A DNA stretch of 32,000 nt, taken from Candidatus Saccharimonadota bacterium. GTDB taxonomy: Bacteria; Pseudomonadota; Alphaproteobacteria; CAJXXZ01; 1604HC. Location: assembly GCF_008189525.1 (NCBI RefSeq), contig NZ_CP043314.1, positions 1 to 32,000 on the forward strand. The letters are read 5' to 3'. The notes below the pieces were generated by a model. The model made no database searches. It had not been told where the DNA came from and saw only the letters and a list, made by a program, of their open reading frames with translations. The translations under genes were made by a program, and so were the position numbers. Numbering within the stretch: position 1 is the stretch's first letter; every line of letters starts with the position of its first letter. This document shows positions 2,917 to 31,531 of this stretch, one piece after another.

Positions 2917-3051
2917 TTTTATATTTAGAGAGCTAATCTCAGCTATGATGTGATTTTATATAATATTTGTTTTTATGTTTAAGGTTTATAGAAATATTTT
3001 ATATTTTAGTTTATTTGGATTTTTATTTTGTCTGAAATTTATGGGAGTTTT

Positions 3052-3936
3052 ATGATCTTAAGCAGTAAAGTTATGTGTTTAAAAACACAAGTTGGAAATA
3101 ATTTTTATAATAGTAACTTAGAGAAAATTAGTGACTCTAAATATGATATATGTCTAATAGATGAAACATTAAGTTACATGAAAATAGAAAGAATTCCTCA
3201 AGGTTTTAATTTTCTAGATAGAATTAAGTGGATACTAAACCTAGAGAAGAAGTTATTTCTAAACAAGAGCTTTAAAAGAATATTTTATAATAAAGAATTA
3301 TGTGTATGGATCTATTCCAATATTAAGGTTAATAAGAAAATCAAATGGTCAGTAGTAGAAAAAGTCGAATTGCTAAAGAAATTATGTAGAAATGTAAATA
3401 TAAGCGAAGTTTGGGTAATACGTGAAGGAGATAGGAACGTTTGCGTTAGCTTATTAAAAGGGAAAATTGTATTTTTTAAAGTCATGGACTCAAATGTTGG
3501 TGCAGAAGTCGCTGAGATATCTGATTACATGTCCGATAAATATAGCTTTAAGCCATATATAAGAACCTTTGGTGATGATGTAGAAATAAATAGTGATTAC
3601 TCTTATTCTAATTCTGAAGTGGAAGTAAAAACTAAGCTTTCTATAGGAATGTTAGCTTTTTCTTACTTAAAAAGTTTTAAAATGGATTTCTACTGCTATG
3701 TAACTAATAGTATAGCTTTGAGTTTGTTGATTTTGTTTAGTAGCTATATATCCATTAATAACAAGATATTAAAGAAGGACATATTAATTAATCAAAAACA
3801 GATATTAGATTTGAATAATAAGCTTTCTAATATTCCTAATGTTAATCATATTAAGCAATTAATGTCTTTTAAAAGTAATGTATTTAGTTTCACACAGAAA
3901 CATAACAAGTTATCTGATAAGAATGTTTCTTTCTGA
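3052..3936 (+). CDS. Hypothetical bitopic membrane protein, possibly a GspL-like or PilM-PilN-like assembly component
   Basis: ORF track starts at TTG 3028. ATG 3052 is preceded by GGGAG (3043-3047). About 210 aa of cytoplasmic region, one TM segment (approx. aa 222-243, YCYVTNSIALSLLILFSSYISI), then a ~60-aa coiled-coil-like tail (KILKKDILINQKQILDLNNKLSN). The function is inferred only from architecture and position after the platform gene. Confidence 0.55.
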   Translation: MILSSKVMCLKTQVGNNFYNSNLEKISDSKYDICLIDETLSYMKIERIPQGFNFLDRIKWILNLEKKLFLNKSFKRIFYNKELCVWIYSNIKVNKKIKWSVVEKVELLKKLCRNVNISEVWVIREGDRNVCVSLLKGKIVFFKVMDSNVGAEVAEISDYMSDKYSFKPYIRTFGDDVEINSDYSYSNSEVEVKTKLSIGMLAFSYLKSFKMDFYCYVTNSIALSLLILFSSYISINNKILKKDILINQKQILDLNNKLSNIPNVNHIKQLMSFKSNVFSFTQKHNKLSDKNVSF

Positions 3937-6737: not shown

Positions 6738-7586
6738 ATGAAATTATTAAATAACTTGTTAAATAAGTTTTACTTTTTATCTAGATTGTTAAGTAAGAAT
6801 ATAGCAGATTTTTATTTTAAGAACTCTATTGATTCTATAAATAATGATAAAAGTATTGTCAAAAGAACAGCTGCCTCTTTTAGTAGTTTAATTTTATGTT
6901 GCATGGTTTTTTGTTCATCTGTTTCTAAAGCTGAATTATATGAAGATCTAAAAGGCAGTCATACTTTAATTGGACTTACATTCGCAGGAACTTCTAATCC
7001 TAAATATGGATTTAAAACCAAAGACATGGGATACAGTGATTTAGAAAAATATACTGAGAGAAATAATCCATTTTATGGTGCATTGTCGTTGAATATAGTT
7101 AAGGTTTATAGGAATATTTTTTCTTTATCTAACTGTTTCGAAATAGGATTAATGAAAAACAGAATGATTTTAGCATTAGAAGGTGACAAAATAGAGATAA
7201 AACACAAAAACTTCTTTGGATCATTTTTAATTTCTGCAGGATTAAGTGTGGTAGATAAAATGGAAATGTATCTTTCTACAGGATTAAATTTATGTAGATT
7301 TTCAAATAAGGCTTGGTTGAATGGGAAAGAGTACGAATTTTCAGGGAAAAATTTGTTGCTACCTCACTTAGTGTTTAGATCTGGTATTAGGCTAATGGTT
7401 CACAAAAGAGTTACCATGGATCTGTTTTACATTTTCTCTACATCACTGGAAAAAGAAATAAGGGTTAGAACTATAGCTAATGAAGATATACCTGCATTCA
7501 AATCTAATGATGATTTTAATAAAAAGAATTTTAAGCTTAAATCTAAATTTGGTATGATAGGAATTACAGCAAACTATAAAATATAG
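6738..7586 (+). CDS. Putative outer-membrane beta-barrel / surface protein
   Basis: 282 aa. Signal-peptide-like segment AASFSSLILCCMVFCSSVSKA|E lies at aa ~45-65, so the real start may be downstream or non-canonical. The rest alternates hydrophobic and polar residues in strand-like runs. No family is recognised with certainty. Confidence 0.5.
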   Translation: MKLLNNLLNKFYFLSRLLSKNIADFYFKNSIDSINNDKSIVKRTAASFSSLILCCMVFCSSVSKAELYEDLKGSHTLIGLTFAGTSNPKYGFKTKDMGYSDLEKYTERNNPFYGALSLNIVKVYRNIFSLSNCFEIGLMKNRMILALEGDKIEIKHKNFFGSFLISAGLSVVDKMEMYLSTGLNLCRFSNKAWLNGKEYEFSGKNLLLPHLVFRSGIRLMVHKRVTMDLFYIFSTSLEKEIRVRTIANEDIPAFKSNDDFNKKNFKLKSKFGMIGITANYKI

Positions 7587-9594: not shown

Positions 9595-10857
9595 TCAGAT
9601 AATTATTTCTCCTTCGAATGATATTTCTGCAGGTCCTTTTTGCCATATTTTGTTAGAATCTCTGCTCATTTCTATCTTGCCCAGCTTAGTATGAAAGATT
9701 AATTTTTTATATTCATCTTTTGTGTTTGTCCTACTACATTCTGTATTCGTATTTCTTTCCACTTTACATTTAAGATCCGACGCTTTTTCTGTTAGTTGTA
9801 CTGGGTTTTGTAAAGTCCATAAAACAAAGGCTGCAGCTGCAGTTCCAGAGCCACATGCCATAGTTGGGCCTACCCCCCTTTCATATGGCATTATGTTCCA
9901 ATTGTCTGAGTTTATGTCTAATTTATTATCTTTTGTAATAATATTCGATTCAGTCGTTGAGGTTTCTTTATTTTTTGTTTTCTGTTTTTTATCTACTGAT
10001 TTATCATTAGGCCAGATCCAGATTATGTTGAACATACTGGTTAGGTGTTTGAATATATTGATATCGTGATCCCATTTTGCCTCTCGATTATTTATTACTA
10101 CTATATGATTATTTCCAGTATTTACAGTAAAAACATGAAAAGCATCTAATGCAGAAATTTCCTCTAAACCTATTTCGCATGTATTAAAGAATTCAGATTT
10201 GCTTGTATCCTTTGTGTTTATTTTCTTTTTCAGAGCAATGTTTTTATTTTGTGGAATGCATGGATTTTTCTGTTTAGAGTTATCAATCTCAGAGATTTCT
10301 TCTGCAAAAAATTCACATGGCATTGAATATGTTATTTCTCCTCCTGTATATATTGCTTTTACTAATCCAGAATCTGTATATAAACTTAACTCTAAATTGG
10401 CATTACTTATGTCATTATTTACGAGTTTGTTTGTGTTATAAGTTTTATTGTCTTTGCAGATTAGATTATTGGACAAAATGTTGTCGAAAATATACAAAGC
10501 TACAGCTCTGATTCCATTTCCACAGAATGCTGCGTGTGATCCATCAGAATTCCAGAATTTTACTATGTAATTAGTTTGTGGGTTACATAATTCTGAAATA
10601 TTATTACCATGTTTGTTTCCTATACTTCTTTCATGAATAGACTCTGCATATATAACTTGATCACATCCTATGCCTAGTTTTCTATCTGCAATATGTATTA
10701 TGTTCTCCTGTGCAAACATTGCAAAGCAATGTTCCCTTCCTGAAAACATTTCTTTTCCGATTCCTGAGAAGAAAATGACGAAATCATTTCCTAATCCGTG
10801 AGCTTTTATAAATCTTGATTTATTTTGTAATTTTTTGTCTTCATTCTCACGGCACAT
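9595..10857 (-). CDS. dapF: Diaminopimelate epimerase, unusually long (420 aa)
   Basis: HGLGNDFVIF near the N-terminus. Both catalytic Cys motifs are present (FCGNG, Cys112; ERGVGPTMACGSGTAAAA, Cys335). About 140 extra residues occur as K/N/T-rich insertions relative to the ~275-aa canonical enzyme. Confidence 0.85.
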   Translation of the reverse strand: MCRENEDKKLQNKSRFIKAHGLGNDFVIFFSGIGKEMFSGREHCFAMFAQENIIHIADRKLGIGCDQVIYAESIHERSIGNKHGNNISELCNPQTNYIVKFWNSDGSHAAFCGNGIRAVALYIFDNILSNNLICKDNKTYNTNKLVNNDISNANLELSLYTDSGLVKAIYTGGEITYSMPCEFFAEEISEIDNSKQKNPCIPQNKNIALKKKINTKDTSKSEFFNTCEIGLEEISALDAFHVFTVNTGNNHIVVINNREAKWDHDINIFKHLTSMFNIIWIWPNDKSVDKKQKTKNKETSTTESNIITKDNKLDINSDNWNIMPYERGVGPTMACGSGTAAAAFVLWTLQNPVQLTEKASDLKCKVERNTNTECSRTNTKDEYKKLIFHTKLGKIEMSRDSNKIWQKGPAEISFEGEIII

Positions 10858-16005: not shown

Positions 16006-16653
16006 TTATATAGACTTTGGCTTGCCTACAAAGAGTTTGTCAGTTTTTTGTCCATTCATAGTTTGATATTGTATTACAACATGATCGTAAGATGTTTTTA
16101 TGACTTTTATGTCAGGTATTTTATCGTTTTTAGCGTACCAAATTCCATTTATGCAAATTAACCAATCATCTTCGTTATCAAGTATGCAGCTTAGGTTTAG
16201 AGTGGTTTCAGTTTGTGCTTCTTCTTCATTAGTTTTGATTATTTTGCTTAATATTAGATCTATTTTTAATTCTACTTTTTTATTCAATTTTTGCATTTCA
16301 ACTATCTTTACGCAGCCGAATGGAATTTCTTTTATCCTATTTATTTTTCCTTCGTCAATTTCTAAGAAAATTGTGTATATTAGTATATTTTCGTACGATT
16401 CTTTCTGAATTCTTTTTACTTCTATGTCATTTTGCATGAACCATTTGCTTATTGATCTATCTTGTTTTATTGCAAACTTAGACCAAGAATCTTGATTAGA
16501 TGCTATGAAGTTAAATTCTTTTTCTAGATTTCTTTGTACAAGCTGTTTGTTCTTGTTGTCAGATTTATAAGAATGGTTTTTCTTGAATAATAAGAAAGTG
16601 TAAAAGGCTAAAAACAAATTGACTGAAGCAAAAATTAAATGATCGAATTTCAT
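16006..16653 (-). CDS. Hypothetical membrane-anchored protein (N-terminal TM, ~190-aa extracytoplasmic part)
   Basis: 215 aa. TM anchor LIFASVNLFLAFYTFLLF. Lies directly upstream of priA on the same strand. No confident family; the C-terminal pattern is discussed in findings. Confidence 0.6.
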   Translation of the reverse strand: MKFDHLIFASVNLFLAFYTFLLFKKNHSYKSDNKNKQLVQRNLEKEFNFIASNQDSWSKFAIKQDRSISKWFMQNDIEVKRIQKESYENILIYTIFLEIDEGKINRIKEIPFGCVKIVEMQKLNKKVELKIDLILSKIIKTNEEEAQTETTLNLSCILDNEDDWLICINGIWYAKNDKIPDIKVIKTSYDHVVIQYQTMNGQKTDKLFVGKPKSI

Positions 16654-16873: not shown

Positions 16874-16879
16874 TCAAGT

Positions 16880-17281
16880 GGAAATCAATCTGTCGCTGTG
16901 ATTTTTCTTGTTTACATATTTGTATTTATTGCTTGTATTGTGAATCTAAGAAAATAGCAGAGGAAAGTCCGGGCTCCATGAAGGAAGAGTACCTGTTAAC
17001 AACAGGCGAGCGTAAGCTTAGGGAAAGTGCCACAGAAAATTACCGCCAATAATTAGAGTTATTTAAGTTTCTTGAATGATTTGTTTTTTGGTAAGGGTGA
17101 AAAGGTGCGGTAAGAGCGCACCTCTGATTTTGGCAACAAGGCAGGAAAAGGTAAACCCTACTCGGAGCAAACTCGAACAGAAAATACCTTCATTTAATTT
17201 TCGGGTTGAGTGCTTCAGTGCGTTAGTGATATCGCATGTAGATAAATGACAGTTAATACAGAATCCGGCTTATAGATTTCC
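16880..17281 (+). ncRNA. rnpB: RNase P RNA, bacterial type A
   Basis: Universal core GAGGAAAGTCCGGGCTCC, GGGAAAGTGCCACAGAAA, GGTAAGGGTGAAAAGGTGCGGTAAGAGCGCACC, GGTAAACCC, ACAGAATCCGGCTTAT. P1 pairs GGAAATC (16880) with GATTTCC (17275-17281); P2 pairs CTGTC with GACAG. Peripheral helices (P3, P12 region) are AT-rich. Confidence 0.9.
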
Positions 17282-17450
17282 AAACTTTAGTTTATTTTAG
17301 TGATTTATTAATTTAGTAAGCTAATCATAGGCATGTCTAAATATTTTCTTGTAAATTGATTTTATGGATTTAATTTTGCTTAATAGTTTTAATGCTTTAT
17401 GCAAATTTTTATTTGTTATATGATCTTCATTCATTGATTATGTTATCTGT

Positions 17451-22901: not shown

Positions 22902-23091
22902 GTATTTATCATAATGCTTTTATGAGAATAAAGCTTATAGAAGACTGAAAATAAAATCATTCGTATTGTTTTGTTATGCAGTCATGTAGTTTGTTTATAA
23001 TTTAATGCTTGGTTTTGTATATTTAATATTTTATTAAGATTTATTTCGTAATTTGTTTGAATTCGAAGAAATGAAAATTAAGGAATAAGAA

Positions 23092-24426
23092 ATGGAAAAA
23101 ATGGAAAATAGAAAAAGTAATAGCATAAGTAATTCAAAAATCTTATCTGGAGTGCAAAGTAGTAACATTTTTGCAGAATTTATAACTCCAAAATTATTTA
23201 TGAGAATGTTACCTTGGATTGATCTAGAAACAGGTATTTTTAGGATAAACAGAGTTTATAAAAACAAATCTTATGCTTCTGATATGGATTTGGAATCTAT
23301 TTCTAAAATTCCTATTTTTAATGGTTTAGCTCAAGAAAAAATCAACTTTTTGAAAGAGAATTGTGTAGTAAAAGATTGTTCATTGGGAGATGAAATTATT
23401 GATGACAAGAAATCACTTTATGTAATTCTAAGTGGAGAATATCAACTAAACACACTTAATCAAAATAATAGAAAAGTTGTAGTTGCTAATTTGGCTTCTG
23501 GTAAGTTCTTCAAAAAGAAAAATTCTTGTTCTCATTCTGTGATGTTAAAAACTTTTATGCCTGGGAAATTAATGATTGTTCCTGAAGAAGTTGTTAATAA
23601 AATCTTTGATGCATCTCATAAAGATAATTATTTGGAGAAGCCTATATCTTGTAAGTACGATTATGAGACTGGAGAGCAAGTTTGTTCTTTGATTTCTTCA
23701 TACGAAGGGGAGCCTGAAATTCCTAGAGGATTCACAAAATACTCAGAGAATCCTAAGGAAATAGAGTTAGATGTTATACAGGCAGTGACAGGATTACATA
23801 CCAGAGTTCACGAGCTGTACAATAATCCTAATCCTCAATTGGAATCTCAGTTAAGGATTGTAATTGCGAACATATTGGAAAGAGAAGAATGGGAGATTTT
23901 TAATAACTCTAATCATGGTTTAATAAATCAAGTTTCTATGGATAGGATAATGACTACAAGGACAGGTCCAGCTACACCAGAAGATCTAGATGATTTGTTA
24001 GCTTTATTATGGAAAGAGCCTTCTGTTATAGTTGCTCATCCTAAAGCAATCGCTTCTTTTGGAAGGGAATGTACGAAACGAGGAGTTCCTCCTGTAGTAG
24101 AAGAAGTTTTTGGTTCTAAAGTTATAACATGGAGAGGTGTTCCAATAATTCCATGTGATAAGATGCCTATAAAAACAAACGGATTAGGTTACAAAACTAC
24201 AAGCATGATGGCCATAAGGCTTGGTTATGAAAAGCAGGGAGTAGTAGGATTGCATAAGAAAGAAGTTTCTTATGGTGGGGTGCCTAGTTTAAGTGTAAAG
24301 AAAATGGGCATAGATGAAAACTCAGTGATGAATTATTTGGTAAGCAAATATTACAATGTCGTAGCTTTGGTTGATGATTCAATGGCAATGCTTACAAATA
24401 TAGAAATAGGTCATTACCATGACTGA
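23092..24426 (+). CDS. Family 2 (2B-type) encapsulin nanocompartment shell protein with inserted cNMP-binding-like domain
   Basis: 444 aa, AAGGA SD. aa ~68-172 resemble a CRP/PKA-type cNMP-binding fold (IPIFNGL..., DEIIDD..SLYVILSGEY, VVANLASGKFF). The protein has no C-terminal helix-turn-helix. aa ~175-444 instead carry capsid-like blocks I recognise from Family 2 encapsulins (TRTGPATPEDLDDLLALLW, ITWRGVPIIPCDKMP, MNYLVSKYYNVVALVDDSMAMLTNIEI). Overlaps a cysteine desulfurase gene by 8 nt. Confidence 0.8.
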   Translation: MEKMENRKSNSISNSKILSGVQSSNIFAEFITPKLFMRMLPWIDLETGIFRINRVYKNKSYASDMDLESISKIPIFNGLAQEKINFLKENCVVKDCSLGDEIIDDKKSLYVILSGEYQLNTLNQNNRKVVVANLASGKFFKKKNSCSHSVMLKTFMPGKLMIVPEEVVNKIFDASHKDNYLEKPISCKYDYETGEQVCSLISSYEGEPEIPRGFTKYSENPKEIELDVIQAVTGLHTRVHELYNNPNPQLESQLRIVIANILEREEWEIFNNSNHGLINQVSMDRIMTTRTGPATPEDLDDLLALLWKEPSVIVAHPKAIASFGRECTKRGVPPVVEEVFGSKVITWRGVPIIPCDKMPIKTNGLGYKTTSMMAIRLGYEKQGVVGLHKKEVSYGGVPSLSVKKMGIDENSVMNYLVSKYYNVVALVDDSMAMLTNIEIGHYHD

Positions 24427-26071
24427 ACTAAGCTTTAAGTTTAGTAAAGTAAAATCTATTGTAGAGTCAGAAAAAGAAAATGCGAAAGTTGTAAAAGTCT
24501 CTGTGAAAGAGACTGCTAGAGAGAATTTTGATATTAGAGCTGATTTTAGAAATCTAAATAATAATTTAAATAATGAATCTGATGTAGAAAGTGCAGTCAA
24601 TGAGTCTAATACAGATATTATGAAGAATACTAAAAATAGCAAATTGAACGAATCTAATTACATATCTACAAAATCTAGTTTAATGAAGAATAAAATTCAG
24701 TCTGACAGTTGTGTGGAGTTTTGTAACTCATATGCTTATGGTTCTAATTTTATAAACAATAATAACCTTCATAATTCTTTTGATAGGAGTGATCAGCATG
24801 GTCACGAAAGTGATCAGCATGGCTATAGAAGTATTAATCATGGTAAAAGCTCAGTATCAAAAAAAACTCATTACGATTTCTTTGGTAGAAGCGTAAGAAA
24901 TGATTTTCCGATACTTTCTAGAGTAGTAAATGGGAACAAAATAGTTTGGTTAGATAATGCTGCTACAACTCAGAAGCCTGCAAAAGTAATAGAATCTTTA
25001 GTGCATTATTATTCTGTTCATAACTCTAATGTTCATAGAGGTGTTCATACTCTTTCTCAAGAAGCATCGCAACTTTTTGATGAATCCAGGGAAGTAGTTA
25101 GGAATTTCATAAACGCAGAGAAATCTGATGACATAATTTTTACTAAAGGAGCTACAGAAGGGTTTAATTTAATATCGAATGCATACCTTTTGCCTAGCTT
25201 GAATCCTGGAGATGAAATTATTATAAGTAATTTAGAGCATCACTCTAATATACTTCCTTGGAAAGTTGTCGCAGAAAAAACTGGAGCTGTTTTGAAAGTA
25301 GTTAAGATGGATCAAAGTGCTAATTTCTTGATTGAAGATTACGAAAGATTGTTGAGCAGTCGTACTAAGTTAGTTTCTGTTACTCAAGTCTCTAATGCAG
25401 TAGGGACTTCTGTGCCTATTAGAGATGTTGTGGAGATGGCTCACAGAGTTGGTGCTAAAGTGGTTGTTGATGGAGCTCAATCTATTTCTCATATGCCTGT
25501 TGATATGCAGGATTTAGGGTGTGATTTTTTTGTTTTCTCTGGACATAAAATGTTCGCTCCTACTGGAACTGGAGTGGTTTTTGCTAAGCATGGTTTGCTA
25601 GGAAATCCATACCAAGTTGGAGGAGGTATGATAAGAAATGTTACATACAATGAAGTGGAATATGCTAATTCTCCGTTTAGATACGAAGCTGGCACTCCTA
25701 ATTTAGCAGATATAGAAGGTCTAAAAGCAGCAATAAATTATTTAGAGGGAATTGGTATGGAAAATGTCTATGATTACGAGCATGGGTTGATGGAGTATGC
25801 AATGCAGAAAATATTACAAGTGCAAAAAATCAGACTTGTAGGTGATCCTGACAGCAGGATTGGAATCATACCATTTGTAATGAATGGATTAGAAAATGAC
25901 TATGTAGGAAAAATGCTAGACAAAAAAGGTGTGGCTGTAAGAACTGGACATCATTGCGCGCAGCCAGCTATGAATTCGCTTGGATTCTCTGGAACAGTGA
26001 GAGCATCTCTTGCCTTGTATAATACTCATGAAGATATAGATAAAATGGTTTCGATTCTCTCATCTCTTTGA
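24419..26071 (+). CDS. SufS/CsdA-type (group II) cysteine desulfurase with ~155-aa disordered N-terminal extension (putative encapsulin cargo)
   Basis: 550 aa. The catalytic domain starts near RNDFPILSRVVNGNKIVWLDNAATTQKP. NVHRGVH, PLP lysine in FSGHKM (AAA 25547-25549), catalytic Cys in RTGHHCAQP (TGC 25955-25957). aa 1-155 are K/N/S/E-rich with no fold I recognise. The ATG lies inside the shell gene's last codons (ATGACTGA). Confidence 0.9.
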   Translation: MTELSFKFSKVKSIVESEKENAKVVKVSVKETARENFDIRADFRNLNNNLNNESDVESAVNESNTDIMKNTKNSKLNESNYISTKSSLMKNKIQSDSCVEFCNSYAYGSNFINNNNLHNSFDRSDQHGHESDQHGYRSINHGKSSVSKKTHYDFFGRSVRNDFPILSRVVNGNKIVWLDNAATTQKPAKVIESLVHYYSVHNSNVHRGVHTLSQEASQLFDESREVVRNFINAEKSDDIIFTKGATEGFNLISNAYLLPSLNPGDEIIISNLEHHSNILPWKVVAEKTGAVLKVVKMDQSANFLIEDYERLLSSRTKLVSVTQVSNAVGTSVPIRDVVEMAHRVGAKVVVDGAQSISHMPVDMQDLGCDFFVFSGHKMFAPTGTGVVFAKHGLLGNPYQVGGGMIRNVTYNEVEYANSPFRYEAGTPNLADIEGLKAAINYLEGIGMENVYDYEHGLMEYAMQKILQVQKIRLVGDPDSRIGIIPFVMNGLENDYVGKMLDKKGVAVRTGHHCAQPAMNSLGFSGTVRASLALYNTHEDIDKMVSILSSL

Positions 26072-26093
26072 TTCGATTCTCTCACCTATTTGA
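26051..26093 (+). repeat. Tandem 21-nt duplication spanning the desulfurase stop codon
   Basis: TCGATTCTCTCATCTCTTTGA (26051-26071, encoding SILSSL plus stop) recurs as TCGATTCTCTCACCTATTTGA (26073-26093). Period 22 nt, 2 mismatches. Confidence 0.8.
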
Positions 26094-26153
26094 CTATTCT
26101 GTTTGTTTTTTATATCTTGCATGGTTTCTATTTTTTAGCATATGTTCTCTAAA

Positions 26154-26181
26154 TTGACTTTTAGGATCATGCTGATATCAT
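26154..26181 (+). promoter_or_regulatory. Candidate sigma70-type promoter of tRNA-Cys
   Basis: TTGACT (26154-26159), 16-nt spacer, TATCAT (26176-26181), with the -10 box ending 9 nt before the tRNA 5' end. Confidence 0.4.
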
Positions 26182-26190
26182 ATATCTTGT

Positions 26191-26262
26191 GGCCGAGTGG
26201 CAGAATGGCTTATGCAGAGGACTGCAAATCCTTTTATATCGGTTCGATTCCGGTCTCGGCCT
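26191..26262 (+). tRNA. tRNA-Cys (anticodon GCA)
   Basis: 72 nt. Acceptor stem GGCCGAG/CTCGGCC, anticodon arm GAGGA-CTGCAAA-TCCTT, T arm ATCGG-TTCGATT-CCGGT. Discriminator U73, the known CysRS identity element. No encoded CCA (followed by CAC). Confidence 0.95.
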
Positions 26263-26870
26263 CACAAATTTATTTAAACGCTTGTTTGAATGATTTCCTA
26301 AGTTATTTGAAATGCATTAATAAAATATATTAAAGAAATTTTAAACCGTATCTAAATCTTGTCTAATTCTTAATCATGAAATAATCTAATTATTTTGTTT
26401 GAAATGATTTGGAAGTATAGAAGTAACCTGATAACAAATTTAAAAAATGTACAATGAAAATATAGATAAGCTGCAAATACAGGGATCTGCTGAGATTGTT
26501 ATTGAAATGACTGTGTTTAAGATTTTGTTAAAATTTCCTTTCCTGACATGAAATTTATTTCACAATATTAGTTTTGGGTTATAAATTGTGTTTAAAGTTT
26601 TCTTTGTTTTTAAGTATTTTTATAAAATATTTTGAAAAGATAATTTGTGATTTTTATCTTGCCAATGATTTGCTTTTTTAAGCTGTAATTGTGTTTAGTA
26701 AATTTCTTCACATAAATATGCTTTGTTCTTTATGTTTTGTCCTTTTGAGTGCTTAGATTTCTCAAAAATGAATGTTTTTGTTTAGAAAATATTTATTTCT
26801 ACAAAAGAAGTAATAAAGCATTTTGAATTGTAATTGATTTTGATAATATGTTTAGAAGAGTTTTTCAAAG

Positions 26871-26976
26871 TGTTGGCGATGTCCTACTCTCGCGTAAACT
26901 ACCATCGGCGCAAAAGACTTTAACGGCCGAGTTCGGAATGGGATCGGGTGTTCTTTCTTTGCTATAGTCACCAACA
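26871..26976 (-). rRNA. rrf: 5S rRNA, orphan and short (~106 nt)
   Basis: Reverse complement reads TGTTGGTGACTATAGC...CACCCGATCCCATTCCGAACTCGG...GCGCCGATGGTAGT-TTACG-CGAGAGTAGGACATCGCCAACA. Helix I pairs TGTTGGTG with CGCCAACA. Loop C and loop E consensus blocks are present. Ends are +/-3 nt. No 23S rRNA is adjacent. Confidence 0.85.
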
Positions 26977-27223
26977 AAGGAATTGTATATTACAAAAATT
27001 ATTTTGTCTATACCCTTTTTAATAAATTTACAAATAATTTACAAAGAATGCTTATTTTTTATTTAAAGTATTGTTTTTAATTCTTCAAAACACTTTATTT
27101 AATATGATTTTTGATTACATACTGTTTCAGATAAAGTCTTTTTATATCAGGTTCACATTCTTTAACCACATTCTTTTAGTAAGTTTGGGCGCTTTATGAA
27201 AAAACATAGTATAATTTTGTGTC

Positions 27224-27490
27224 ATGTATCAAGTATTTCTTAAGAATGCACACAGTGTCATATTTTTACTGTTTTCAGTTTTTATTTTATCTACATTTTT
27301 TATATTCGTTTTTAAATATCAAAAATATACATTTCTGGTTCATATATCAGGATTATGTTGGTTTGTTTTTTGGTTCTTTGCTTTTTACAAATTAAATATT
27401 TTTCTATTTTTTATTACTTTATACACTAGCGCTATTTCTTCTAGGCTTTTGATAAAGTATGTCTTAAATAAGCAGAATTCAGAATTATGA
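27224..27490 (+). CDS. Doubtful small hydrophobic ORF (88 aa)
   Basis: F/L/I-rich translation of T-rich DNA. No SD, no recognisable family. May be spurious. Confidence 0.2.
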   Translation: MYQVFLKNAHSVIFLLFSVFILSTFFIFVFKYQKYTFLVHISGLCWFVFWFFAFYKLNIFLFFITLYTSAISSRLLIKYVLNKQNSEL

Positions 27491-27572
27491 ATAAAATCTC
27501 ATTATATGCATGTACACACTAAATTATCATACGAAGATTTAGAATTTTATTTATTTTGAATATGTTTTGAAT

Positions 27573-27866
27573 TTACGTTTTTTGGTTTATTTTTATATAT
27601 TTAACAGCTACAAATCCTAGATAGAAATTTATTGGCTCTATAAGCTCTTGGGATTTATACTGGAATGAGATTAGATTTTGGTTTTTCTCAACTCTAAGGA
27701 ATAAAGTTTTGGTTTTTAAGCAATAATGATATGGAAGCAAATCTTGCTCTTTAGATATATTGCTCCAATTTTTCCTTAAACTGGATATTACAGGATCATT
27801 TCCATACATAGGATCCAAAACTTTTGCTAAACTAGACCCCAAAGTTTTTGTAAAATATTTTCTCAT
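27573..27866 (-). CDS. DUF721 / DciA-like protein (candidate replicative helicase loader)
   Basis: 97 aa. The pattern L..L...W..I........H..P..L....L.L.V.......EL......LI..IN..LG...V..I (SLRKNWSNIS...PYHYCLKTKTLFLRVEKNQNLISFQYKSQELIEPINFYLGFVAVKYIKI) matches my recollection of DUF721. Resemblance by eye only. Confidence 0.45.
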   Translation of the reverse strand: MRKYFTKTLGSSLAKVLDPMYGNDPVISSLRKNWSNISKEQDLLPYHYCLKTKTLFLRVEKNQNLISFQYKSQELIEPINFYLGFVAVKYIKINQKT

Positions 27867-28041
27867 AATTTGATTTTTTCACTTTCGCTATAATTTACAT
27901 GTAACACATATATTATGATTTGTCTTTTGGTTTAGAATGACTTTGATCAGAAATAATTGAAGAAATAATACTTTTATGATAAATTTCTAGTCTAGTGATA
28001 AATAAAATGTATAAACAAATTGTTAATGAAATGAACGTAAG

Positions 28042-30862: not shown

Positions 30863-31531
30863 TTACGCCTTCTTATTTATATTAGATTTCCTGGTTATAT
30901 TAGAATTATATTTCTTGTTTGGGCCTAAGGGCTTTAAGCTTACATTTCTTGTAGATTTTGCTAAATTATTCCTTTTTACAGGGTTTGTTCTAATTGACTT
31001 AGAGTTAGGAAGTTTATAGCTTATATTATTTTGGTTTCTTAGGTTTTTTGAATTTTCTGTTTCTGTAGGATTATTTAATTTGATAGTTTTTTGTTCATTG
31101 TTAATAGTGTTTCTATTTTTATTAATACCATCATCAATTAATGTGCCTTGATTATTAGGAGTATTTCCATCATAAGCTCCATTAATAGATTTCTGATCAT
31201 TATGGATTGGATTAGATGAGCTATCTGTATTCTTTTGTGCATTTTGTACATTAGATAGATTTCTAAGCTCAGATATATTCTGCTTGCTTTCTCTTTTTAC
31301 AAGAATTCCTGTGTATAAACAGAAAAAAACAAACATTGTAGCAAAGAAATAAGTAGCTTTTTCTGCTGGGTTTAATTTGTATCTTTTTTTTGGTCCTATG
31401 TTTTGCCCTATTCTTTCTTCTGGGTTTTGCAGAAAAATAACTAAAGACATTAAAATTACTGCCAAAAGGCTAAAAAACCATGAAATATATAACATAAGAT
31501 TTATTCTATTGAAAATTTTCTTCTTTATCAA
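30863..31531 (-). CDS. secG: Preprotein translocase subunit SecG with long low-complexity C-terminal tail
   Basis: Two TM segments with the SecG-like pattern (LLAVILMSLVIFLQNPEE..G and KATYFFATMFVFFCLYTGILV). Ends 2 nt before the pyrG start, matching the common secG-pyrG order. aa ~80-222 are N/K/S-rich. The start is possibly M13. Confidence 0.55.
   Translation of the reverse strand: MIKKKIFNRINLMLYISWFFSLLAVILMSLVIFLQNPEERIGQNIGPKKRYKLNPAEKATYFFATMFVFFCLYTGILVKRESKQNISELRNLSNVQNAQKNTDSSSNPIHNDQKSINGAYDGNTPNNQGTLIDDGINKNRNTINNEQKTIKLNNPTETENSKNLRNQNNISYKLPNSKSIRTNPVKRNNLAKSTRNVSLKPLGPNKKYNSNITRKSNINKKA

What the first reader, a model, noticed from the sequence alone, without database searches (positions are those of the whole stretch)
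23092..26071. Encapsulin nanocompartment operon: cNMP-domain (2B-type) shell gene overlapping a SufS-type cysteine desulfurase cargo gene, in a streamlined AT-rich genome
Seen in sequence: the 444-aa protein has a CRP-like cNMP-binding region (aa ~68-172). It lacks any DNA-binding HTH. The remaining ~270 aa carry capsid-like blocks (TRTGPATPEDLDDLLALLW, WRGVPIIPCDKMP, NYLVSKYYNVVALVDDSMAMLTNIEI). Its stop overlaps the start of the next gene (ATGACTGA, 8-nt overlap), which suggests translational coupling. That next gene is a complete group-II cysteine desulfurase (PLP Lys in SGHKM, Cys in RTGHHCAQP) preceded by ~155 aa of low-complexity sequence. Established knowledge: Family 2 encapsulins (S. 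elongatus SrpI, Nichols et al. 2021; classification by Andreas and Giessen 2021) package cysteine desulfurases through a disordered N-terminal domain. As I recall, desulfurase cargo is typical of the cNMP-less 2A shells. The cNMP-bearing 2B shells studied so far are mainly actinobacterial systems with terpene cyclase or polyprenyl transferase cargo, often with two shell paralogs; this should be verified. Inference: this locus has a 2B-type shell with desulfurase cargo and only one shell gene. None of the sulfur-starvation neighbours (rhodanese, cysE, sulfate transport) are present; the neighbours are dapD, a peroxiredoxin and tRNA-Cys. A reduced housekeeping genome keeping a nanocompartment implies strong selection, perhaps for sequestered persulfide or sulfur chemistry or Fe-S supply inside a host. 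This combination looks uncharacterised.
Basis: partly seen in the sequence, partly recalled or inferred. Interest (0 to 1): 0.88.

Follow-up and report, generated by a model that had tools for sequence, protein, structure and literature searches.

The report
Encapsulin-desulfurase operon in a tiny endosymbiont
This is a real two-gene operon for a virus-capsid-like protein shell and the sulfur-releasing enzyme it probably encloses; the type has been catalogued since 2021, and the one unusual point is that a protist endosymbiont with a 616-kb genome has kept it.

Summary
Window 23092-24426 encodes a Family 2B encapsulin shell: N-arm, a cNMP-fold insertion and an HK97 core. Its stop overlaps by 8 nt the start of a SufS-type cysteine desulfurase (24419-26071) with a ~155-aa, largely disordered N-terminal extension. 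The window is from Candidatus Nesciobacter abundans, a 616-kb Holosporaceae endosymbiont of diplonemids.

The novelty claim does not hold. Andreas & Giessen 2021 catalogued 199 Family 2B operons with desulfurase cargo, about 9% of 2B systems. In my survey of the 80 nearest shells in named genomes, 48 have this same layout of one shell followed by a desulfurase.

Some points may be new. The pair is kept in all five diplonemid-symbiont genomes found (about 0.62 Mb each). The shell core is as conserved as housekeeping genes or more so. The cNMP pocket and the cargo-loading motifs have eroded. The usual sulfur-relay neighbours are absent. I found no paper reporting an encapsulin in these symbionts, and no experimental study of any 2B-desulfurase system.

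The likely role, sequestering sulfur taken from imported cysteine, is inferred from characterised 2A systems. Verdict: a new member of a known kind, of moderate interest.

The parts
22994..23023 (+). Weak sigma-70-like promoter match upstream of the shell gene, in the 190-nt gap between dapD and the shell gene.
   Evidence: 9 of 12 matches. The region has fewer such matches than its shuffles (11 against a mean of 17), so this is only a candidate.
23092..24426 (+). Family 2B encapsulin shell gene (444 aa plus stop).
   Evidence: PF19307 E=8e-88. NCBIfam encap_f2b is the best hit at 363.6 bits, full length. SrpI 6x8m E=8e-72. The family profile matches the solved 2B shells over full length, E=1e-147 to 2e-154. 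Foldseek top hit is 9bhu. The protein is 100% identical to a Ca. Nesciobacter abundans protein.
23092..23286 (+). N-extension and N-arm (aa 1-65), with the conserved motif ITP..f..mLPW..le.GifRiNR.
   Evidence: P33, P41, G48, R51, N53 and R54 are invariant across 16 shells; all but R51 and R54 (90% or more) are also invariant across 73 shells. This stretch aligns to the SrpI N-arm.
23287..23646 (+). cNMP-binding-fold insertion (aa 66-185) with an eroded ligand-binding cassette.
   Evidence: PF00027 scores only 17.9 bits. The modelled beta-barrel has pLDDT 62-87. Foldseek hits PKG/PKA cNMP-binding domains at about 1e-7. 'GEYFGE' of typical 2B shells is 'GKFFKKKNSCS' here, with a 4-aa deletion, and His stands at the position of CAP R82 / S. 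griseus W176. This is the fastest-evolving part of the shell (31-34% identity to Cytomitobacter).
23647..23739 (+). Linker (aa 186-216) modelled with low confidence, between the insertion and the E-loop.
   Evidence: pLDDT <50 for aa 186-216. A disordered linker at this place is described for Family 2B (PMC8346489).
23740..24423 (+). HK97-fold shell core (aa 217-444).
   Evidence: pLDDT about 90. Identity is 68-70% to Cytomitobacter and 87-89% within Cytomitobacter. Foldseek matches 2A and 2B shells, then phage HK97 capsids.
24419..24426 (+). 8-nt overlap ATGACTGA between the shell stop and the cargo start; translational coupling is likely.
   Evidence: The same ATG-at-minus-8 arrangement is found in L006, L007, L004 and L090. 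The ATG arises from the conserved C-terminal His-Asp codons (CAT GAY).
24419..24883 (+). Cargo N-terminal extension (aa 1-155), the putative cargo-loading domain.
   Evidence: Composition is 15% S, 15% N and 10% K, with GC 0.284. The model shows low-confidence helices at aa 2-50, then pLDDT <50 for aa 50-146. The known motifs were not detected. There is no similarity to the Cytomitobacter N-terminal domains.
24884..26071 (+). SufS-type (class V aminotransferase) cysteine desulfurase domain plus stop. PLP-Lys K377 is at 25547-25549 and catalytic Cys C513 at 25955-25957.
   Evidence: PF00266 E=7e-135. TIGR01979 sufS scores 517 bits against a 475 cut-off, and f2_encap_cargo1 621 bits. K377, H511, H512 and C513 are invariant. 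The domain is modelled with pLDDT >90 over most of its length.

Best explanation
This is a functional Family 2B encapsulin operon of the cysteine-desulfurase cargo class in the obligate diplonemid endosymbiont Ca. Nesciobacter abundans.

Shown here:
- The first gene encodes an HK97-fold shell protein with a cNMP-fold insertion; in the solved S. griseus 2B shell this insertion sits on the outside.
- The second gene, with an overlapping start, encodes a SufS-type PLP desulfurase with intact catalytic Lys and Cys behind a long, mostly disordered N-terminal extension.
- The pair is conserved in five symbiont genomes of about 0.62 Mb, and the shell core is under strong constraint.

Inferred from characterised Family 2A systems (SrpI; Acinetobacter) and the S. 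griseus 2B shell:
- The shell protein self-assembles into an icosahedral shell, and a few desulfurase dimers are tethered inside by the N-terminal extension.
- Host-derived L-cysteine enters through the pores and is converted to alanine. The sulfur stays inside as persulfide, polysulfide or elemental sulfur.
- The result would be a buffered, non-toxic sulfur pool for Fe-S cluster and thio-cofactor synthesis.

The cNMP-fold domain has lost the residues needed to bind cyclic nucleotides, so it is probably structural or binds something else.
For: Family assignment:
- PF19307 at 8e-88, and encap_f2b and f2_encap_cargo1 as the best NCBIfam hits.
- SrpI at 8e-72.
- Full-length profile match to three solved 2B shells.
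- AF2 model with Foldseek top hit 9bhu at 6e-38.

Cargo: it passes the SufS cut-off and the catalytic residues are invariant. The extension at aa 50-146 is modelled as disordered.

Conservation:
- The shell-then-desulfurase pair is present in C. indipagum, C. primus and two further ~620-kb genomes.
- The overlapping start is conserved in several of them and in outgroups.
- Nesciobacter against C. indipagum: shell 55% identical, cargo catalytic domain 54%, compared with MurB 51%, MurJ 39%, Prx 56% and FtsK 61%.
- The HK97 core is 87-89% identical within Cytomitobacter, against 60% for MurB.
- The symbiont shells form one clade.

Operon type: 48 of 80 nearest loci in named genomes have the same arrangement, and 199 such operons have been published.

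Sulfur link: a relative (L090) has a rhodanese, TusA and DsrE next to the pair.

Mechanism by analogy: N-terminal-domain-dependent loading and activation of the desulfurase (PMC8049743), and storage of elemental sulfur (PMC10836720).

Physiological context: the symbionts make no amino acids, and Fe-S synthesis is among their most complete pathways (10.1101/719211).
Against: - Both curated NCBIfam cut-offs are missed (363.6 < 400 and 621 < 800 bits), probably because the lineage evolves fast.
- The two published loading motifs (LARLANEFFS, AASPYYFLDG) were not detected: an HMM of motif 1 scored no better than shuffles, and I saw no motif-2 match by eye.
- The Nesciobacter N-terminal domain has no significant similarity even to those of Cytomitobacter.
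- One of the two SrpI residues near the cargo density (F262) is Lys here and E, A or P in Cytomitobacter.
- The only solved single-component 2B shell (S. griseus) has 60 x 25 A two-fold pores. Such pores would not keep reductants out as the 2A sulfur-storage model requires. The pore state of 2B-desulfurase shells is unknown.
- No sulfur acceptor genes lie nearby.
- TEM of more than 850 symbiont cells reported no capsid-like particles, although the search was for GTA particles and the authors note limited resolution.
- Assembly, loading and sulfur storage are all untested.
Confidence: 0.78

Rival explanations
1. The shell and enzyme have become uncoupled. The desulfurase now works free in the cytosol as the symbiont's housekeeping SufS, and its N-terminal extension is AT-drift low-complexity sequence. 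The shell would then be empty or hold something else.
For: The known loading motifs were not detected. N-terminal domain length ranges from 68 to 161 aa, with no similarity between the two genera. The F262-equivalent shell residue is not conserved. The catalytic domain passes the generic SufS cut-off. Fe-S synthesis is retained in these genomes, and no other desulfurase was seen in the ~52 kb examined.
Against: An empty shell would not be expected to keep an HK97 core 87-89% identical within a fast-evolving genus. All five genomes keep an N-terminal extension despite strong deletion pressure, and three Cytomitobacter N-terminal domains share a significant conserved N-terminal island (0 of 500 shuffles). 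Gene order is conserved in all five, and the overlapping start in three plus outgroups. Disordered loading domains are known to diverge quickly (PMC8049743).
Confidence: 0.13
2. The 444-aa protein is a leftover prophage or gene-transfer-agent capsid, and the desulfurase is an unrelated neighbour.
For: The fold is HK97-like, with phage capsids among the Foldseek hits. GTA capsid and portal genes have been reported in these same symbionts (PMC9254644).
Against: The encapsulin models score 318-364 bits, against 12.9 bits for the best phage capsid model. Phage capsids match only at about 1e-8 with ~10% identity, against 6e-38 for a 2B shell. No portal, protease or terminase gene lies in the window or its flanks. 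The desulfurase adjacency is conserved across phyla.
Confidence: 0.01
3. The protein is a CRP/FNR-type cyclic-nucleotide-responsive regulator, as homologues are often annotated.
For: Sources name homologues 'cyclic nucleotide-binding domain-containing protein' or 'CRP-like cAMP-binding protein'. PDB entries for 2B shells still carry the name 'Crp/Fnr family transcriptional regulator'.
Against: There is no HTH domain, and the C-terminal 250 aa are an HK97 shell core. The binding cassette is eroded. EshA, the founding example of this annotation, was re-assigned as a shell protein that does not bind cAMP (PMC11550324).
Confidence: 0.01

Closest known systems
Family 2B encapsulin operons with cysteine desulfurase cargo (catalogued by Andreas & Giessen 2021; 199 operons in 9 phyla; none characterised experimentally that I could find).
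   Same: The shell has the same N-arm, cNMP-fold insertion and HK97 core. A single shell gene is followed directly by a SufS-type desulfurase with an N-terminal extension. This arrangement is seen in 48 of 80 nearest loci, and some relatives have the same 8-nt overlap.
   Different: The host is an obligate endosymbiont with a 616-kb genome. The shell is about 35 aa shorter than usual (444 against 479-485 aa) and its cNMP cassette is eroded. The cargo N-terminal domain lacks the usual motifs. No rhodanese, TusA, DsrE or serine acetyltransferase gene lies nearby (compare L090). Scores fall below the NCBIfam cut-offs.
SrpI / CyD of Synechococcus elongatus PCC 7942 (Family 2A; PDB 6X8M, 6X8T; Nichols et al. 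2021).
   Same: The HK97 core is homologous (E=8e-72). The cargo class and the principle of loading through the N-terminal domain are the same. Y273, next to the cargo density, is conserved as Y415.
   Different: SrpI has no cNMP-fold insertion. The SrpI operon is plasmid-borne, induced by sulfur starvation and surrounded by sulfur genes. The CyD N-terminal domain is 225 aa and carries the LARLANEFFS and AASPYYFLDG motifs, which were not detected here. F262 corresponds to K404 here.
Acinetobacter baumannii Family 2A desulfurase encapsulin (PDB 8T6R; Benisch et al. 2024), which stores crystalline elemental sulfur.
   Same: The shell core is homologous (E=9e-72) and the cargo is a SufS-type desulfurase. 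It is the source of the proposed sulfur-sequestration mechanism.
   Different: It is a 2A shell with closed two-fold pores and a 6 A five-fold pore that keeps reductants out. Whether a 2B shell can do the same is unknown.
Streptomyces griseus Sg Enc / EshA (Family 2B; PDB 9BHU) and the S. lydicus two-component 2B shell (9BJE, 9BIX).
   Same: The full-length architecture, including the cNMP-fold insertion, is the same. The insertion is not a cAMP sensor in Sg Enc, and cannot plausibly be one here.
   Different: Their cargo is a terpene cyclase (2-MIB synthase for Sg Enc), and the S. lydicus system has two shell paralogues. W176 of Sg Enc is His here and Ser in most 2B-desulfurase shells.

Membership tests
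Family 2 encapsulin shell (Pfam PF19307, SrpI-like) | HK97-fold shell core that matches PF19307 above its gathering score. | tested here: met
   294.1 bits against a 22.8 cut-off. SrpI E=8e-72. AF2 model with Foldseek hits to 9bhu, 8t6r and 6x8m at E<=1e-30.
Family 2 encapsulin shell (Pfam PF19307, SrpI-like) | Extended N-arm with the conserved TPR...LPW...G.YR.NR segment. | tested here: met
   P33, P41, G48 and N53 are invariant in 73 shells, with R51 and R54 at 90% or more. The segment aligns to SrpI residues 30-56.
Family 2 encapsulin shell (Pfam PF19307, SrpI-like) | Self-assembly into a closed icosahedral shell. | not testable with these tools
   This needs expression followed by SEC and EM. 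TEM of the symbionts reported no capsid-like particles, but it targeted GTA particles at limited resolution.
Family 2B encapsulin | cNMP-binding-fold domain inserted between the N-arm and the E-loop; this feature defines 2B in Andreas & Giessen 2021. | tested here: met
   The sequence signal is weak (PF00027 17.9 bits < 27.5), but the fold is present: a modelled beta-barrel, Foldseek hits to cNMP-binding domains, and full-length profile alignment to 9bhu, 9bje and 9bix.
Family 2B encapsulin | Score above the NCBIfam NF041163 (encap_f2b) equivalog cut-off. | tested here: not met
   363.6 bits against a 400 cut-off. It is still the best-scoring family and the alignment runs end to end (aa 16-441 to profile 8-450). 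NCBI does give this name to the C. primus orthologue.
Family 2B encapsulin | A conserved Trp replaces the cAMP-binding Arg in the pocket (W176 of Sg Enc; Andreas et al. 2024). | tested here: not met
   The residue is His here, and the FGE motif is also lost. Most 2B-desulfurase relatives have Ser at this column, so the Trp rule does not hold for this subclade.
Family 2B encapsulin | Ca2+-binding acidic subdomain within the insertion. | not tested
   The text available to me does not give the coordinating residues, so I could not map them.
Family 2B encapsulin | Disordered linker between the insertion and the E-loop. | tested here: met
   pLDDT <50 for aa 186-216. The linker is about 30 aa here, against about 60 aa described for the family.
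Family 2 encapsulin cysteine desulfurase cargo | SufS-type class V aminotransferase domain with a PLP-Lys and a catalytic Cys. | tested here: met
   PF00266 at 7e-135. TIGR01979 at 517 bits against a 475 cut-off. K377 and C513 are invariant.
Family 2 encapsulin cysteine desulfurase cargo | Long disordered N-terminal extension that housekeeping SufS lacks. | tested here: met
   About 155 aa precede the catalytic domain, and aa 50-146 have pLDDT <50.
Family 2 encapsulin cysteine desulfurase cargo | Conserved loading-domain motifs LARLANEFFS and AASPYYFLDG (Nichols et al. 2021). | tested here: not met
   An HMM of motif 1 built from 15 free-living cargos gives no hit above shuffles in any symbiont N-terminal domain. 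No YYFL-type motif shows in the alignment. These motifs were defined on 2A cargos.
Family 2 encapsulin cysteine desulfurase cargo | Score above the NCBIfam NF041166 (f2_encap_cargo1) cut-off. | tested here: not met
   621.4 bits against an 800 cut-off. It is the best-scoring family, and the alignment starts at aa 49.
Family 2 encapsulin cysteine desulfurase cargo | Encoded next to the shell gene on the same strand. | tested here: met
   8-nt overlap. The adjacency is conserved in five symbiont genomes and in 53 of 80 surveyed loci.
Family 2 encapsulin cysteine desulfurase cargo | Physical encapsulation that depends on the N-terminal domain. | not testable with these tools
   This needs co-expression and co-purification with and without aa 1-155.

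The most novel reading that the evidence does not exclude
In these ~0.6-Mb endosymbionts the encapsulated SufS may be the main or only cysteine desulfurase. A nanocompartment would then sit at the entry point of essential Fe-S and thio-cofactor sulfur supply in a near-minimal cell. Loading may rely on a re-invented, lineage-specific signal, and the cNMP-fold domain may be decaying because it can be dispensed with. These would be among the smallest genomes known to keep an encapsulin, a natural 'minimal' 2B-desulfurase system, and a possible explanation for capsid-type genes in symbionts where only GTA capsids have been considered.
Probability: 0.15. Interest if true: 0.65.

Novelty: new member of a known kind. 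Interest (0 to 1): 0.38.

Why it matters
For encapsulin biology, the 2B-desulfurase class has been catalogued but I found no experimental study of any member. Its pore state and the role of its cNMP-fold domain are open questions. These symbiont versions are compact, natural variants: shorter shells, a decayed ligand pocket, and loading domains as short as ~70 aa. They could help define what the system minimally needs.

For symbiosis biology, keeping a two-gene nanocompartment through reduction to ~0.62 Mb, with the shell core as conserved as housekeeping genes or more so, suggests that handling cysteine-derived sulfur matters inside the host cytosol. The group that searched these same symbionts for GTA capsids mentioned encapsulins only as an analogy, so the operon seems to have gone unnoticed in that literature.

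As a genomic arrangement it is ordinary.

Tried and rejected
1. I thought 'KETARENFDI' in Nesciobacter and 'KINKILDSFDF' in Cytomitobacter were remnants of the LxxLANEFF loading motif. An HMM test against 500 shuffles per sequence gave no support, so I dropped the idea.

2. I tested whether the Nesciobacter and Cytomitobacter N-terminal domains are homologous. They show no significant similarity (83-424 of 500 shuffles reach the observed score). Only the Cytomitobacter domains resemble each other.

3. I considered a functional link between the desulfurase and the downstream tRNA-Cys. It is not conserved: the other genomes have tRNA-Asn, tRNA-Arg or nothing there.

4. dN/dS estimates: dS is saturated (>1 in nearly all pairs), so the ratios are only indicative. 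I relied on amino-acid identity against neighbouring housekeeping genes instead.

5. I tried to learn whether the genome has another desulfurase or suf/isc genes.
   - The genome paper and its supplement give no gene list.
   - Review and follow-up papers say nothing on this.
   - Extending 10 kb past both window ends found none.
   - The whole genome could not be searched with these tools.

It therefore says nothing about other Holosporales such as Gromoviella.

7. The cluster look-up gave no organism names for the nearest outgroup proteins P0007-P0009, so the donor lineage is unresolved. The NJ tree has no support values and long branches.

8. The Andreas & Giessen supplements held as text do not mention these symbionts. 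They may list accession numbers only.

Full report
**1. What is in the sequence**

Two same-strand ORFs occupy 23092-24426 (444 aa) and 24419-26071 (550 aa). The stop of the first overlaps the start of the second by 8 nt, ATGACTGA. The window is AT-rich, with GC about 0.30. The only tRNA in it is tRNA-Cys at 26191-26263.

The 444-aa protein is 100% identical to a 'hypothetical protein' of Candidatus Nesciobacter abundans, on a 616-kb contig. This organism is a Holosporaceae endosymbiont of the diplonemid Diplonema japonicum and was recently renamed Ca. Ignotibacter abundans (PMC11909080). These symbionts lack glycolysis, the TCA cycle, oxidative phosphorylation and amino-acid synthesis. Fe-S cluster synthesis is among their most complete pathways (10.1101/719211).

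**2. The shell**

Sequence evidence:
- Pfam places aa 192-440 in SrpI-like PF19307 (E=8e-88). The cNMP_binding hit is sub-threshold at 17.9 bits.
- The best NCBIfam model is encap_f2b, aligned end to end at 363.6 bits, below its 400 cut-off. encap_f2a follows at 317.7 bits, and the best phage capsid model scores 12.9 bits.
- The closest solved proteins are SrpI (8e-72), the Acinetobacter 2A shell and three Streptomyces 2B shells.
- A profile of 73 homologues aligns over full length to the three 2B structures, E=1e-147 to 2e-154.

Structure evidence:
- The AF2 model has mean pLDDT 78, with about 90 in the HK97 core, 62-87 in the insertion, and <50 in the linker at aa 186-216.
- Its best Foldseek hit is the S. 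griseus 2B shell 9bhu (6e-38). Then come 2A shells, then phage HK97 capsids at about 1e-8. The insertion alone matches PKG/PKA cNMP-binding domains.
- No HTH domain is present.

**3. The cNMP-fold insertion is decaying**

- Typical 2B-desulfurase shells read GEYFGE...SDVTVRT in the phosphate-binding cassette. Nesciobacter reads GKFFKKKNSCS, has a 4-residue deletion, then HSVMLKT. Cytomitobacter reads GKFFGG.
- The column of CAP R82 / Sg Enc W176 is His here.
- The insertion is only 31-34% identical between the two symbiont genera, against 68-70% for the HK97 core.
- The characterised S. griseus 2B shell does not bind cAMP (PMC11550324).

From this I infer that the insertion here is not a cyclic-nucleotide sensor.

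**4. The cargo**

- aa 176-542 are Aminotran_5 (7e-135). The protein passes the SufS subfamily cut-off, and its top NCBIfam hit is the encapsulin cargo desulfurase model (621 bits, below the 800 cut-off).
- The PLP-Lys (K377) and the catalytic Cys (C513) are invariant.
- The first ~155 aa are rich in S, N and K. The model shows low-confidence helices at aa 2-50, followed by about 100 residues with pLDDT <50. This matches the disordered loading domains of Family 2 cargos.
- The published motifs LARLANEFFS and AASPYYFLDG (PMC8049743) are clear in free-living cargos but were not detected here: the motif-1 HMM found nothing above shuffles, and I saw no motif-2 match by eye.
- The Nesciobacter N-terminal domain resembles no other. 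Three Cytomitobacter domains share a significant island in their first ~25 residues.
- Of the two SrpI residues next to the cargo density, Y273 is invariant (Y415 here). F262 is Lys here and E, A or P in Cytomitobacter.

Loading is therefore inferred from architecture, not shown.

**5. Conservation**

- The shell-then-desulfurase pair is present in C. indipagum, in C. primus (two assemblies) and in two further ~620-kb circular-looking contigs.
- The ATG-at-minus-8 overlap recurs in two of these and in the outgroups L004 and L090. It arises from the conserved C-terminal His-Asp codons.
- Flanking genes differ between genomes, and the tRNA-Cys neighbour is not conserved.
- Nesciobacter against C. 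indipagum: shell 55% identical, cargo catalytic domain 54%, FtsK 61%, Prx 56%, MurB 51%, MurJ 39%.
- Within Cytomitobacter the HK97 core is 87-89% identical, against 60% for MurB. dS is saturated, so dN/dS values are only indicative.
- In a distance tree the symbiont shells form one clade on a long branch, apart from the Methylobacterium and Acetobacter 2B shells. The tree has no support values.

The operon was most likely present in the common ancestor of the two genera and has been kept by selection.

**6. How unusual is the arrangement?**

It is not unusual.
- Andreas & Giessen 2021 list 1281 Family 2A and 199 Family 2B operons with desulfurase cargo, the 2B ones in 9 phyla.
- Andreas et al. 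2024 put desulfurase cargo at ~9% of 2B systems.
- My scan of species-representative genomes kept the 80 best shell matches. Of these, 48 have one 2B shell with a desulfurase directly downstream, 4 have two shells plus a desulfurase, and 1 has the desulfurase upstream. Of the 27 without a desulfurase, 11 are contigs cut soon after the shell; 14 of the 27 have two shell genes, nearly all in actinobacteria.
- Carriers of the single-shell type include Bacteroidales, Prevotella, Planctomycetota, Chlorobiaceae, Methylobacterium, Acetobacter, Sporomusa and Streptomyces.
- One relative (L090) has a rhodanese-MBL fusion, TusA and DsrE beside the pair, which fits a role in sulfur trafficking. No such genes lie in the window or within 10 kb beyond each end.

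**7. Literature on the symbionts**

- No paper in the library links an encapsulin to Nesciobacter or Cytomitobacter.
- George et al. 2022 searched these genomes for GTA capsids, imaged more than 850 symbiont cells without seeing particles, and mentioned encapsulins only as an analogy.
- Database annotation has partly caught up. [quoted passage not shown]

**8. Mechanism**

Shown: the domain architectures, intact catalytic residues, conserved pairing and constraint.

Inferred from 2A systems: the shell assembles; the N-terminal domain tethers the desulfurase inside; encapsulation activates the enzyme about sevenfold in SrpI; and sulfur is stored as S0, shielded from reductants.

The main caveat is that the solved single-component 2B shell (S. 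griseus) has very large two-fold pores, and the pore state of 2B-desulfurase shells is unknown. Storage of 'elemental sulfur' may therefore not carry over. A sequestered persulfide or polysulfide pool, or simply a stabilised enzyme, are alternatives.

Whether this is the symbiont's only desulfurase could not be tested.

**9. Verdict**

The claimed novelty of the combination is not supported. This is a new member of a known, experimentally unstudied operon class, in an unusual and apparently unreported host context. Interest is moderate.

Noticed in passing
window 26871-26975 (- strand): A 5S rRNA gene (Rfam 78 bits) stands alone. No 23S or 16S rRNA was detected anywhere in the 32-kb window, so the 5S gene appears unlinked from the 23S gene, which is unusual for bacteria.
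   Followed up: no
window 26072-28041: About 1.9 kb downstream of the cargo gene is largely non-coding and very AT-rich (GC 0.26). It holds only tRNA-Cys, the 5S rRNA and two small ORFs (27224-27490 +, 27573-27866 -) with no family hits. It may be decayed gene remnants.
   Followed up: partly
window 16877-17288 (+): RNase P RNA, class A, full-length match at 252 bits.
   Followed up: no
L004 806-2215 (protein P0008): This outgroup 2B shell has a near-canonical cNMP phosphate-binding cassette (FGEIAAL...SRQATVTA, with the Arg present), unlike most 2B shells. It could be a 2B shell that really binds a cyclic nucleotide.
   Followed up: no
alignments A1 and A3, column of Sg Enc W176: The published statement that essentially all 2B insertions carry Trp at the CAP-R82 position does not hold for the desulfurase-associated subclade, where the consensus is Ser.
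   Followed up: partly
L090 5885-10947 and L091: A relative (P0011, GC 0.39, 464-kb contig) has the 2B shell and desulfurase, again with an 8-nt overlap, divergently flanked by a rhodanese-metallo-beta-lactamase fusion, TusA and a DsrE-like protein. These are candidate sulfur acceptors for this class.
   Followed up: partly
L002 9301-11040 compared with L003 9397-11040: The same C. primus cargo gene is called with different starts in two assemblies (579 and 547 aa). The longer call runs back into the shell gene and is probably wrong.
   Followed up: partly
window 24419-26071: The 550-aa cargo protein did not come back as a self-hit in the homology search (best hit 56% identity), although the gene is called in the public record. 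This looks like a gap in the protein index or a candidate-filter artefact.
   Followed up: partly
window 9595-10857 (- strand): The DapF-like ORF is 420 aa, against a 270-position DapF model, and matches it in two separate stretches. It may carry an insertion, an extension or a fusion.
   Followed up: no
window 3028-3936 (+), 6738-7586 (+), 16006-16653 (-), 30863-31531 (-): Three ORFs of 215-302 aa have no Pfam or NCBIfam match; a fourth of 222 aa (30863-31531) has no Pfam match and was not scanned against NCBIfam. They may be lineage-specific or fast-evolving proteins.
   Followed up: no
L001 (C. indipagum), around the operon: Several leucine-rich-repeat proteins flank the encapsulin operon in C. 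indipagum but not in Nesciobacter. This agrees with the LRR expansion reported for that species.
   Followed up: no
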